48,223 nucleotides of DNA from the IMG/VR virus record IMGVR_UViG_2897375277_000006; one strand, given 5' to 3'. This document shows, one piece after another, positions 6,001 to 9,000 of the stretch. This stretch comes from a virus. Its lineage: Duplodnaviria; Heunggongvirae; Uroviricota; Caudoviricetes. Made by a program: the position numbers. Positions within the stretch are counted from its first letter, which is position 1, and each line of letters opens with the position of its first letter.

Positions 6001-9000
6001 CAAATAAGTGGTTTGCTGCCTAATTTCATTTTCTGGCGACCAACACAAGTCACACCCATTTCACTGCGTGGCTTGCTGTAATAAATTCGGTTAGTTCAGA
6101 CAATAAAAAAAACCATCGAAGTGGGCTATGACCATTTTTTATTTGGATTTCGTTGGTGAGCGTGGTTAACAACTCTGTGCATTACATCCTCATATTTTTC
6201 ATCTTCAATTTTTTCAACATCGCGAGGAAATGGTGTTGCTAATGCTTTGTCAACTTTGTCCATTGGGTCTTCATTAATCTTATATTCAGGACCGTCATCT
6301 ATAGCATTAAATCCAGGTGTTACACCGTTTTTTAATGCATATGCTATCCTCTTTTCCCATCTCGCTATTCTCCTCCTGTCTCGAGATGTAAGGCCTCTAT
6401 CAGATACTTTTCTGTTTTGTCCGCGGTCAGGATTAACATAAATAGTCTTTTTCACCATAAGCATACTCAATAAGCACCGTACGGTGGTTTACTGTACAAT
6501 TTTATTTTTTGGACTGCATGTATTTTGTTTCCTAATGGGTTTGAATCCTTGTAATAAATACTTCTATTTTTTCGAACGAATTCTTCTTTCTTCTTGTAGC
6601 AAAGGCTTCCCAGTGATGCTGCTTTGTCTGCTCTGACGCAACCAGAGAGCTTTAGCGCAATTTTTCGCGCCAGTGCTTCATTACTTCGTCGCTCGGCAAT
6701 AAGTTCTGCTCTGCGAGCTTTGTAGCGGCTTTTTGCTGTACCTTTGGATTCTTTCCAGACTATGGTTACCATGATGGTCTCCTTTAAGTGGCTTTGGCGC
6801 ATGACGCGTCGAGGTGCTTATCTTCTCGATCGCTGTCTTGCAGCTGCAATTCGCGCCATCCCCAAAACCACTCAAGTTCTGGTCTCAACGGTTAGGTTGA
6901 GAGTTCGTCGATGTTAAAGAGCCTGCCAATCTGTTCCGTTTGGCTTCCAGCGTCCTGCTGATGGCTTAAATTTAAGACTTCTTAATTTGTAGGTCAACTG
7001 TATTTTTGAAGAAAACTTAATTTTATGGGCGTGAATTTAGTTTGTCTTTGATTTTTAACGGGAAATAAAAAAGGGGCGAAAGCCCCTTAAGGAAGGTTTG
7101 CTAGCTTGGCATCAACGACAACGCCAATGATTTTACAGTTCCCATTGATTTCAATCATTGGGTATTGTGGATTGAGTGGTTTCAGGAATTTTCTACCGGC
7201 ATCAATAACTAACTTTTTGAATGTCGCCTCGTTTTCTCCTTCAAGTTTGGCGACTACCAGCTTTCCATTACGTGGTTCGACTTCTGGGTCGACGAGAATA
7301 ATCATCCCCTCAGGAATACTCAGTCCTGCCGGGGCAGTCATTGAGTCGCCTTTAACGTCGAGCCAAAAAGAGTCTTCAGAACAATCTACCGTTGTGTCGT
7401 ACCAGTTATCTATTGCACGCCTATGATATGGCTCTACAGCTTCCATCCAACATCCTGCGCTTACCCAACTAATTAGAGGATACGAACCTCTTGGAGCATG
7501 CCTGCTGTGATAGGCAATGTTTGAAAGACTATCCTCTCCTTTCAACAGGTAATCAGGGGAGCACTGCAAAGCCTTGGCTAAGGCCAATAGGTTTTCGCCA
7601 TTGGGCTCAGTTTCAGATCGCTCCCATTGGGAAATAGCAACATTAGACACGCCAACCATCTTGCCAAGGGCAGCCTGCCTAATCTTGAGTTCTTTTCTGC
7701 GAGCGCGAATACGCTCACCCATCAGTTGTGTATTCATAGTTAAGACATCTTAAATAAACTTGACTTAAGATTCCTTTAGCAGATAATTTAAGTGCCCTTT
7801 AATTTCGGAGCGAGTCTATGTACAAAAAAGATGTTATTGACCACTTCGGAACCCAGCGTGCTGTTGCTAAAGCACTAGGCATTAGCGATGCAGCAGTCTC
7901 TCAGTGGAAAGAAGTTATCCCAGAGAAAGACGCCTATCGATTGGAAATCGTTACAGCTGGCGCCCTGAAGTATCAAGAAAGTGCTTACCGCCAAGCGGCA
8001 TAAGTAAATTGCTCTTTAACAGTTCTGGCCTTTCACCTCTAACCGGGTGAGCAAACATCAGCGGCAAATCCACTGGGTATGCCGCTATAACTCCATATCA
8101 ATATAGGAAAATTAACAAATGGCACAAGCAAGTTACAGCAAGCCAACACAGCGAGAAATTGATCGCGCAGAAACAGATTTACTCATCAACCTGTCAACGC
8201 TTACACAGCGAGGTCTGGCAAAGATGATTGGCTGTCATGAATCGAAGATAAGCAGAACGGACTGGCGGTTTATTGCTTCGGTCTTGTGTGCTTTCGGAAT
8301 GGCATCAGACATCAGTCCGATTAGTAGGGCTTTTAAGTATGTGCTTGATGGAATCACAAAGAAAAAATCCCCGGTGGCCGCCGGGGACTCTAAGCAAATT
8401 GATATGCAATTCTGAGGGGATTACTGGATCAATCCACAGGGGTCATTATGACAAATACAGCAAAAATACTCAACTTCGGCAGAGGTAACTTTGCCGAACA
8501 GGAGCGTAATGTGGCAGATCTCGATGATGGTTACGCCAGACTATCAAATATGCTGCTTGAGGCTTATTCAGGCGCAGATCTGACCAAGCGACAGTTTAAA
8601 GTGCTGCTTGCCATTCTGCGTAAAACCTATGGGTGGAATAAACCAATGGACAGAATCACCGATTCTCAACTTAGCGAGATTACAAAGTTACCTGTCAAAC
8701 GGTGCAATGAAGCCAAGTTAGAACTCGTCAGAATGAATATTATCAAGCAGCAAGGCGGCATGTTTGGACCAAATAAAAACATCTCAGAATGGTGTATCCC
8801 TCAAAACGAGGGAAAATCCCCTAAAACGAGGGATAAAACATCCCTCAAATTGGGGGATTGCTATCCCTCAAAACAGGGGGACACAAAAGACACTATTACA
8901 AAAGAAAAAAGAAAAGATTATTCGTCAGAGAATTCTGGCGAATCCTCTGACCAGCCAGAAAACGATCTTTCTGTGGTTAAACCGGATGCTGCGATTCAGA

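What the first reader, a model, noticed from the sequence alone, without database searches (positions are those of the whole stretch)
6467..8415. Mosaic immunity region: P22-type repressor and cro with phage-21-type N and nut sites next to lambda-type O/P
The repressor and cro read as P22 C2 and Cro. N carries the phage-21 arginine-rich motif, and both nut hairpins share a CUAAC loop unlike the lambda boxB. The replication genes and ori iterons are essentially lambda. The shared operator half-site TTAAGA-N2-TCTTAA occurs in both the pL region and the cI-cro intergenic region. The joints between modules are informative about recombination boundaries.
Basis: partly seen in the sequence, partly recalled or inferred. 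Interest (0 to 1): 0.45.

Follow-up and report, generated by a model that had tools for sequence, protein, structure and literature searches.

The report
Ordinary phage-21-type (imm21) immunity region
This is the well-known immunity region of coliphage 21, a lambda relative whose repressor and Cro have long been known to resemble those of Salmonella phage P22, so it is a familiar module common in E. coli prophages and not a new mosaic.

Summary
The genes are N (6467-6772, minus strand), cI (7087-7737, minus strand), cro (7818-8003) and cII (8119-8415). Both nut hairpins carry a CUAACC loop. The palindrome TTAAGA-N2-TCTTAA occurs only at OL1 and OR3. The O/P genes and the ori are lambda-type.

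- Window 6550-10398, from N to ren, is a single 3852-bp alignment to phage 21 (OL657228) at 97.6% identity.
- The whole finding interval lies inside a single 97.8% alignment to phage mEp235.
- cI is 215/216 identical to phage 21 cI and 202/216 to P22 C2. Cro is 61/61 against phage 21 and 60/61 against P22.
- P22 matches only 6905-8021 (boxA-L to boxA-R), at 83% DNA identity, and phage 21 itself has the same P22-like core.

All operators and nut sites are already annotated in the phage 21 record. DNA from this region matches 2346 of 5426 complete E. coli genomes.

Three small differences from phage 21 remain.
- The 3' end of N is a different allele, followed by an intact HK022-type nun gene, as in mEp235.
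- A short divergent patch lies in the cII 3' end and oop.
- A rare cluster of substitutions lies in pL, OR2 and OR1.

Verdict: already known, low interest.

The parts
6126..6458 (-). nun: an HK022-type Nun transcription termination factor (110 aa). It lies just outside the finding, 8 nt downstream of the N stop codon.
   Evidence: 108/109 identical to HK022 Nun in PDB 6ALG, and the ARM is 26/26 identical to PDB 1HJI. It matches phrog_5632, Nun-like. It is annotated as Nun in mEp235.
6467..6772 (-). N antiterminator, 101 aa. Residues 1-57 are identical to phage 21 N. The C-terminal ~44 aa are the mEp235/HK022-remnant allele.
   Evidence: Identity is 76/98 to phage 21 N and 97/101 to mEp235 N. 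Residues 8-29 equal the PDB 1NYB peptide. It matches phrog_271. The window region 6120-6584 is 96.3% identical to HK022.
6883..6902 (-). nutL boxB hairpin with a 7-bp stem and a CUAACC loop.
   Evidence: Fold and sequence. It corresponds to the annotated nutL of phage 21 (L001 3428-3447).
6913..6922 (-). nutL boxA, GCTCTTTAAC.
   Evidence: Sequence; corresponds to phage 21 boxA-L. It lies at the left edge of the P22 homology, which blastn starts at 6905.
6970..6987 (.). OL1, ATTTAAGACTTCTTAATT.
   Evidence: Identical to the annotated OL1 of phage 21.
6992..6997 (-). pL -35 hexamer TTGACC. It is flanked by four substitutions relative to phage 21, at 6989, 6991, 6998 and 7001.
   Evidence: The pL start site is annotated in phage 21 at the position equivalent to window 6962.
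7005..7022 (.). OL2.
   Evidence: Identical to the annotated OL2 of phage 21.
7034..7051 (.). OL3.
   Evidence: Identical to the annotated OL3 of phage 21.
7063..7086 (.). G+C-rich hairpin terminator immediately after the 3' end of cI.
   Evidence: Sequence. A terminator is annotated at the same place in phage 21 (L001 3608-3631).
7087..7737 (-). cI repressor, LexA-like, 216 aa.
   Evidence: 215/216 identical to the full-length phage 21 ORF and 202/216 to P22 C2. Pfam HTH_3 plus Peptidase_S24. Matches PDB 1ADR and 2R1J.
7738..7755 (.). OR3, AGTTAAGACATCTTAAAT.
7763..7780 (.). OR2, ACTTAAGATTCCTTTAGC. It differs at two positions from phage 21. It overlaps the pR -35 hexamer TTGACT (7760-7765).
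7786..7803 (.). OR1, ATTTAAGTGCCCTTTAAT. The central TT is changed to CC relative to both phage 21 and P22. The pR -10 hexamer GATAAT lies at 7782-7787.
7818..8003 (+). cro, 61 aa.
   Evidence: 61/61 identical to phage 21 Cro and 60/61 to P22 Cro. Pfam P22_Cro.
8011..8020 (+). nutR boxA, GCTCTTTAAC. It sits at the right edge of the P22 homology, which ends at 8021.
   Evidence: Corresponds to phage 21 boxA-R.
8033..8050 (+). nutR boxB hairpin with a 6-bp stem and a CUAACC loop.
   Evidence: Corresponds to the phage 21 nutR stem-loop.
8119..8415 (+). cII, 98 aa. The CII-binding repeat TTGC-N6-TTGC of pRE lies at 8128-8141 on the minus strand.
   Evidence: Pfam Phage_CII, 4.8e-33. Identity is 88/98 to phage 21 and 92/98 to mEp235. 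Repeat sequence.
8360..8387 (-). Hairpin followed by a T-run, inferred to be the oop RNA terminator from its sequence and position. It lies inside the cII 3' end and within the patch 8368-8445 that diverges from phage 21 and lambda.
8448..9347 (+). Replication protein O, with four lambda-type ori iterons at 8796-8882.
   Evidence: 298/299 identical to both lambda O and phage 21 O. Iteron sequence.
9344..10045 (+). Replication protein P.
   Evidence: 232/233 identical to phage 21 P and 230/233 to lambda P. Pfam Phage_lambda_P.
10042..10332 (+). ren. The block colinear with phage 21 and lambda ends at 10398.

Best explanation
The interval is a natural copy of the phage 21 immunity region (imm21) inside a lambda-like prophage or phage genome.

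Inferred mechanism, by near-identity to the characterised phage 21, P22 and lambda parts:
- The LexA-like cI repressor binds three 18-bp operators at OL and three at OR. This shuts pL and pR and regulates its own promoter pRM.
- Cro binds the same operators during lytic growth.
- After derepression, pL and pR transcripts carry boxA (GCUCUUUAAC) followed by a boxB hairpin with a CUAACC hexaloop.
- The arginine-rich motif of N, identical to that of phage 21, binds boxB. With the host Nus factors it makes RNA polymerase termination-resistant, so leftward transcription continues through N and nun into the recombination genes.
- Rightward transcription continues past tR1 into cII, O and P.
- CII activates pRE through the TTGC-N6-TTGC repeat.
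- O binds the four lambda-type iterons inside its own gene, and P recruits DnaB.

The resemblance of cI, cro and the operators to P22 is a property of phage 21 itself and does not come from a recent P22 insertion.

The window departs from phage 21 only at the edges and in small patches.
- The last ~44 codons of N are a different allele, followed by an HK022-type nun gene, as in phage mEp235.
- The cII 3' end and oop carry a short divergent patch.
- Nine substitutions are clustered in pL, OR2 and OR1.
For: - Colinearity: window 6550-10398 is one HSP to phage 21 (97.6%, 3852 bp, 1 gap). Window 5999-8455 is one HSP to mEp235 (97.8%) (50-bp identity profile).
- Protein identities to phage 21: cI 215/216, Cro 61/61, O 298/299, P 232/233, ren 95/96; N residues 1-57 identical.
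- The N arginine-rich motif is 22/22 identical to the phage 21 N peptide solved with its boxB RNA, PDB 1NYB.
- The operators, pL start, boxA, nut stem-loops, CII site and iterons annotated in the phage 21 record OL657228 map one-to-one onto the window. Four of six operators are identical.
- P22 shares only 6905-8021, at 83% DNA identity. N, cII and O are 24%, 27% and 34% identical to the P22 counterparts.
- The same block is in lambda imm21, DE3, HK629, Kapi1, phiv205-1 and many Stx phages. DNA of window 5400-8500 matches 2346 of 5426 complete E. coli genomes, 158 of them over at least 80% of that query.
- IMG/VR contig L006 carries window 4859-10611 in one HSP at 98.7%.
- The phage 21 genome is published (PMC9119081).
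Against: - Nothing argues against the identification itself.
- No expression or binding was tested here. The mechanism is inferred from sequence identity to studied phages.
- OR1 and OR2 each differ from phage 21 at two positions, and the N C-terminal third is only about 45% identical to that of phage 21. Quantitative behaviour, meaning repressor affinity at OR1 and the N-RNA polymerase contact, could therefore differ from phage 21.
- N scores below the Pfam N_peptide gathering cut-off (18.1 against 27.9 bits). That model is built mainly on other N types, so this carries little weight.
Confidence: 0.95

Rival explanations
1. A recent recombinant joined a P22 immC core (c2, cro, operators) to phage 21 N and nut sites and to lambda O/P, so the joints record fresh recombination events in this genome.
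For: - The repressor and Cro are 93.5% and 98.4% identical to P22 C2 and Cro.
- The P22 homology stops sharply at boxA-L and boxA-R.
- Lambda homology begins at 8354, inside cII.
Against: - The same three-way pattern, with the same edges, is already present in phage 21, to which the window is colinear at 97.6%.
- The core is 83% identical to P22 at DNA level, but in 7002-8004 it differs from phage 21 at only 7 positions.
- The joints are therefore ancestral to the whole imm21 family and were not made in this genome.
Confidence: 0.03
2. The element is an imm21 derivative whose operator and promoter substitutions form a selected allele. The changes lie in the OR1 centre (TT to CC), at the OR2 edge and in the flanks of the pL -35 hexamer. 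On this reading they change repressor or Cro affinity, giving a shifted switch set-point or partial escape from prophages of the same immunity type.
For: - Nine of the 11 mismatches to phage 21 between 6989 and 8004 fall in two clusters, of 13 and 19 bp, at pL and at OR2/OR1. The intervening 651-bp cI gene has 2 mismatches and cro has none.
- The exact allele was found only in one IMG/VR contig. It was not found among 489 E. coli genomes carrying this OR (best 96.2%), nor in the GTDB species representatives.
- From my own knowledge of work by the Koudelka laboratory, the uncontacted central bases of P22 operators modulate repressor affinity.
Against: - The positions at the OR2 edge and in the pR spacer also vary between P22, phage 21 and E. 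coli PI24, so they are weakly constrained.
- The contacted outer half-site bases are unchanged.
- The clusters could equally be a short gene-conversion patch from an unsampled relative.
- No binding data exist.
Confidence: 0.12

Closest known systems
Coliphage 21 immunity region (imm21; GenBank OL657228, also in lambda imm21 OM418625 and prophage DE3 EU078592)
   Same: The gene order N-nutL-pL/OL-cI-OR-cro-nutR-cII-O-P-ren is the same, in one colinear alignment at 97.6%. cI is 215/216 identical, Cro 61/61, O 298/299 and P 232/233. N residues 1-57 are identical. The boxA and boxB sequences are identical, and four of six operators are identical.
   Different: - The C-terminal ~44 aa of N are a different allele (overall N identity 76/98).
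- Phage 21 has ral downstream of N, whereas the window has nun followed by a 149-aa membrane protein gene.
- The cII C-terminus and oop differ (23 mismatches in 174 bp).
- OR1 and OR2 carry two substitutions each, and four substitutions flank the pL -35 hexamer.
Enterobacteria phage mEp235 (JQ182731 / NC_019708) and Escherichia phage Kapi1 (MT813197)
   Same: For mEp235, the whole finding interval plus nun (window 5999-8455) is one alignment at 97.8%. N is 97/101 identical, Nun 109/110, cI 215/216, Cro 61/61 and cII 92/98. Kapi1 matches the query over about window 5999-8378 at 97.9% (only; not examined further).
   Different: mEp235 has a P22/HK620-type replication module (O only 24% identical, with a DnaB-like helicase). 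Homology to the window ends at 8455. mEp235 also lacks the window's OR and pL substitutions.
Salmonella phage P22 immC (c2, cro, OL, OR)
   Same: The repressor is 202/216 identical and Cro 60/61. Operator architecture and sequences are nearly identical. boxA is the same type.
   Different: DNA identity is only 83% and is confined to 6905-8021. The P22 gene 24 protein is 24% identical to the window's N. P22 boxB is a GACAA pentaloop hairpin. C1 is 27% identical to the window's cII. P22 replication genes 18 and 12 are unrelated to lambda O and P.
Phage HK022 nun region
   Same: Window 6120-6584 is 96.3% identical to HK022. Nun is 108/109 identical.
   Different: HK022 has no N gene. It keeps only a start-less remnant of the same N C-terminus upstream of nun, and from my own knowledge it uses put RNA instead. 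Its repressor and operators are unrelated to those of the window.

Membership tests
imm21 (phage 21 immunity type) | cI repressor and Cro of phage 21 sequence | tested here: met
   cI is 215/216 identical and Cro 61/61 to the ORFs of OL657228.
imm21 (phage 21 immunity type) | Three OL and three OR 18-bp operators of the 21/P22 type at the annotated positions | tested here: met
   OL1-3 and OR3 are identical to phage 21. OR2 and OR1 differ at 2 of 18 positions each.
imm21 (phage 21 immunity type) | Phage 21 N arginine-rich motif together with matching boxB hairpins (CUAACC hexaloop) in nutL and nutR | tested here: met
   The ARM is 22/22 identical to PDB 1NYB. Both hairpins fold with a CUAACC loop and coincide with the phage 21 annotation.
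imm21 (phage 21 immunity type) | Full-length N of phage 21 sequence | tested here: not met
   Residues 1-57 are identical, but the C-terminal ~44 aa are the mEp235/HK022-type allele. Overall identity is 76/98. This affects the allele assignment of N and not the nut specificity.
imm21 (phage 21 immunity type) | Immunity phenotype: a lysogen is immune to phage 21 or lambda imm21, and the reverse | not testable with these tools
   This needs plating tests.
P22 immC | C2-type DNA-binding domain and P22-type Cro | tested here: met
   Residues 1-68 have 2 substitutions against PDB 2R1J/1ADR. Cro is 60/61 identical to PDB 1RZS.
P22 immC | P22 gene 24 antiterminator, GACAA-loop boxB and the C1 activator flanking the core | tested here: not met
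   N is 24% identical to gp24 and cII is 27% identical to C1. The boxB loops differ.
Lambda replication module | O with four lambda iterons inside the gene, plus P | tested here: met
   O is 298/299 and P 230/233 identical to lambda. DNA identity is 97.4% and the iterons lie at 8796-8882.
HK022 Nun termination factor | Nun sequence with an N-terminal ARM and the C-terminal ...KKWS | tested here: met
   108/109 identical to PDB 6ALG, and the ARM is 26/26 identical to PDB 1HJI.
HK022 Nun termination factor | Exclusion of superinfecting lambda by termination at lambda nut sites | not testable with these tools
   This needs plating of lambda on a lysogen.

The most novel reading that the evidence does not exclude
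The clustered substitutions are a selected operator and promoter allele: OR1 centre TT to CC at 7795-7796, 7778, 7780 and 7781 at the OR2 edge and pR spacer, and four positions flanking the pL -35 hexamer. They are shared only with one IMG/VR contig. On this reading the allele weakens binding of the otherwise unchanged 21/P22-type repressor. That would be a natural first step toward a new immunity specificity, or toward partial escape from the very common imm21 prophages.
Probability: 0.1. Interest if true: 0.35.

Novelty: already known. Interest (0 to 1): 0.08.

Why it matters
It matters little beyond correct annotation. The region should be labelled imm21-type, which predicts three things:
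- immunity shared with phage 21, lambda imm21 and DE3;
- N and nut specificity of phage 21;
- lambda-type replication.

The exercise also shows that protein-level resemblance to P22 is misleading for this immunity type, and that DNA-level comparison is needed to name the allele.

The small departures from phage 21 are typical lambdoid micro-mosaicism. These are the N 3' end with nun, the cII/oop patch and the operator substitutions. They would be worth a look only for someone studying how immunity specificity evolves.

Tried and rejected
- A fresh P22/21/lambda recombinant was rejected, because the region is colinear with phage 21 and with mEp235.
- I checked whether the shorter cI annotated in OL657228 (190 aa) reflects a real difference. 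It does not: the 216-aa ORF is intact in phage 21 and 215/216 identical, so only the annotated start differs.
- Rfam found no curated RNA family in 6467-8415. The only hits are the cIII thermoregulator, four tRNAs and IS009, all elsewhere in the window.
- An exact-match search for the OR variant found nothing in the GTDB species representatives and one contig in IMG/VR.
- No E. coli complete genome carries the identical OR or the whole 4000-12000 arrangement at 99% or more over its full length. The source genome was therefore not identified.
- Full-text searches did not find an open-access statement that P22 and 21 repressors cross-react. Only the citation of Poteete et al. 1980 was recovered.
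- One script used a wrong offset for mEp235. Its mEp235 columns are void. Only the phage 21 mismatch list from that call is used.

Full report
**What is there**

On the minus strand the interval 6467-8415 holds N (6467-6772, 101 aa) and a LexA-like repressor (7087-7737, 216 aa). On the plus strand it holds cro (7818-8003, 61 aa) and cII (8119-8415, 98 aa). Pfam assigns HTH_3 plus Peptidase_S24 to the repressor, P22_Cro to Cro, Phage_CII to cII, and Phage_rep_O and Phage_lambda_P to the next two genes.

The N residues 8-29 are 22/22 identical to the phage 21 N peptide of PDB 1NYB. The repressor's N-terminal domain and Cro match the solved P22 C2 and P22 Cro structures with very few substitutions.

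Each nut site has boxA GCTCTTTAAC followed by a hairpin with the six-base loop CUAACC. NutR boxA is at 8011-8020 and its boxB at 8033-8050. NutL boxA is at 6913-6922 and its boxB at 6883-6902, both on the minus strand. Lambda and P22 have different boxB hairpins.

The palindrome TTAAGA-N2-TCTTAA occurs exactly twice in the window, at 6972-6985 and 7740-7753, with none expected by chance. O, P and ren are nearly identical to lambda, and the four ori iterons lie at 8796-8882.

**Why the mosaic reading fails**

It is colinear with two.
- Window 6550-10398 aligns to phage 21 (OL657228) as a single 3852-bp HSP at 97.6% with one gap. This runs from inside N through nutL, pL/OL, cI, OR, cro, nutR, cII, O and P to ren.
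- Window 5999-8455, which contains the entire finding, aligns to phage mEp235 as a single HSP at 97.8% (profile).

At protein level the repressor is 215/216 identical to phage 21 cI against 202/216 to P22 C2. Cro is 61/61 against 60/61. At DNA level P22 matches only 6905-8021, from boxA-L to boxA-R, at 83%. In contrast, 7002-8004 has only seven mismatches to phage 21.

The "P22-type" core is therefore the phage 21 allele. Phage 21 itself combines a P22-like cI, cro and operator core with its own N and nut sites and lambda-type O, P and ori. Its GenBank record already annotates OL1-3, OR1-3, the pL start, boxA-L and boxA-R, both nut stem-loops, the CII site and the iterons. All of these map one-to-one onto the window.

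The kinship of P22 and 21 operators goes back to Poteete, Ptashne, Ballivet and Eisen 1980 (J Mol Biol 137:81). I recovered that citation from two reference lists. Its content is quoted from my own knowledge. The complete phage 21 genome was published in 2022 (PMC9119081).

**How common it is**

The same block is present in lambda imm21, prophage DE3, HK629, Kapi1, phiv205-1 and many Stx phages. DNA of window 5400-8500 matches 2346 of 5426 complete E. coli genomes, and 158 of them cover at least 80% of that query. One IMG/VR contig (L006) carries window 4859-10611 in a single HSP at 98.7%.

**Mechanism (inferred from identity to studied phages, not tested here)**

- Repressor dimers occupy the 18-bp operators at OL (6970-6987, 7005-7022, 7034-7051) and OR (7738-7755, 7763-7780, 7786-7803).
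- This blocks pL (-35 TTGACC, 6992-6997, minus strand) and pR (-35 TTGACT at 7760-7765, -10 GATAAT at 7782-7787).
- After RecA-stimulated self-cleavage through the S24 domain, pL and pR fire.
- N binds the CUAACC boxB hairpins through its arginine-rich motif. With the Nus factors bound at boxA it makes RNA polymerase resistant to terminators.
- Cro turns early transcription down.
- CII activates pRE through TTGCTGTAACTTGC (8128-8141, minus strand).
- O binds its iterons and P loads DnaB.

**Where the window really differs from phage 21**

1. Left joint, inside N. N residues 1-57 are identical to phage 21. Mismatches then accumulate from about 6626 leftward, and the alignment to phage 21 ends at 6550. 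From 6584 leftward to 6120 the sequence is 96.3% identical to HK022. That stretch encodes a variant N C-terminus and an intact nun gene (6126-6458), 108/109 identical to HK022 Nun. mEp235 has the same N-nun tandem. HK022 itself keeps only a start-less remnant of this N C-terminus upstream of nun.
2. Right side. The cII 3' end and the oop terminator (about 8368-8445) have 23 mismatches in 174 bp to phage 21. They are closer to mEp235 and HK022, with 11-12 mismatches in 156 bp. Lambda homology starts at 8354, and mEp235 homology stops at 8455, eight bases into O.
3. Operator and promoter substitutions. Nine substitutions relative to phage 21 cluster at the pL -35 flanks (6989, 6991, 6998, 7001) and at OR2 and OR1 (7778, 7780, 7781, 7795, 7796). 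The cI gene between them has two mismatches and cro has none. The exact allele recurs only in IMG/VR contig L006. It is absent from 489 E. coli genomes with this OR and from the GTDB species representatives. Several of these positions also vary among P22, phage 21 and E. coli PI24. I read the clusters as weakly constrained sites or a short conversion patch, and I rate a functional shift as unlikely but not excluded.

**Verdict**

The interpretation mislabels a classical, fully annotated immunity type as a new mosaic. Novelty: already known. Interest is low.

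Noticed in passing
window 6126-6458 (-): An intact HK022-type nun gene (108/109 aa identical to PDB 6ALG) lies 8 nt downstream of N in the pL operon. From my own knowledge, Nun acts on lambda-type boxB. The element's own nut sites are 21-type, so it should exclude lambda without harming itself. The same tandem is annotated in mEp235.
   Followed up: partly
L005 (HK022, NC_002166) 8067-8184, minus strand: Directly upstream of its nun gene, HK022 keeps a start-less remnant: ...VVRKNRSIYCKDSNPLGNKIHAVQKIKLYSKLPYGAY*. It matches the C-terminal ~35 aa of the window/mEp235-type N. 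This suggests that nun originally sat behind an N gene that HK022 lost.
   Followed up: partly
window 6989-7001 and 7778-7796: Nine substitutions relative to phage 21 are clustered at the pL -35 flanks, the OR2 edge and the OR1 centre (TT to CC), inside DNA that is otherwise about 99.7% identical. The exact allele was seen only in IMG/VR contig L006. It was not seen in 489 E. coli genomes with this OR, nor in the GTDB species representatives.
   Followed up: partly
window 5542-5991 (-): A 149-aa predicted membrane protein (phrog_3054, unknown function, no Pfam hit) is inserted between the ea10-region terminator and nun. It is absent from lambda, phage 21, HK022 and mEp235 at this position and present in IMG/VR contig L006. 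It may be a superinfection-exclusion moron.
   Followed up: partly
window 5401-5506: This stretch is the uninterrupted version of the site where HK022 carries IS903. Window 5401-5476 and 5468-5506 match the two flanks of the HK022 IS903 at 100%, with a 9-bp overlap that corresponds to the target duplication.
   Followed up: no
window 8368-8445: The cII C-terminus and the oop terminator are a divergent patch relative to phage 21 and lambda (23 mismatches in 174 bp). The patch is closer to mEp235 and HK022. As a result the last ~20 aa of CII differ from phage 21.
   Followed up: partly
window 16233-16542 (+): Four tandem tRNA genes lie downstream of the Q-like gene and a membrane-protein ORF: Met-CAT, Arg-TCT, Thr-TGT and Gly-TCC. 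No stx genes were seen in the ORFs that follow.
   Followed up: no
window 13046-14005 (-): A 319-aa ORF with an N-terminal signal-like sequence sits in the nin-Q region. It lies in a part of the window whose matches in phage 434 include a feature annotated as an outer-membrane beta-barrel lipid A deacylase. That assignment to this ORF is a guess and was not tested.
   Followed up: no
window 44686-44884 (+) and 4860-4918 (-): Two Rfam hits: IS009 (189 bits) near the tail-fibre end of the window, and the lambda cIII thermoregulator element (88.5 bits).
   Followed up: no
L001 (phage 21, OL657228) 3632-4282: The GenBank record annotates cI as 190 aa, starting at an internal Met. The full 216-aa ORF with the complete HTH domain is intact, so the annotated start appears too short.
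   Followed up: yes
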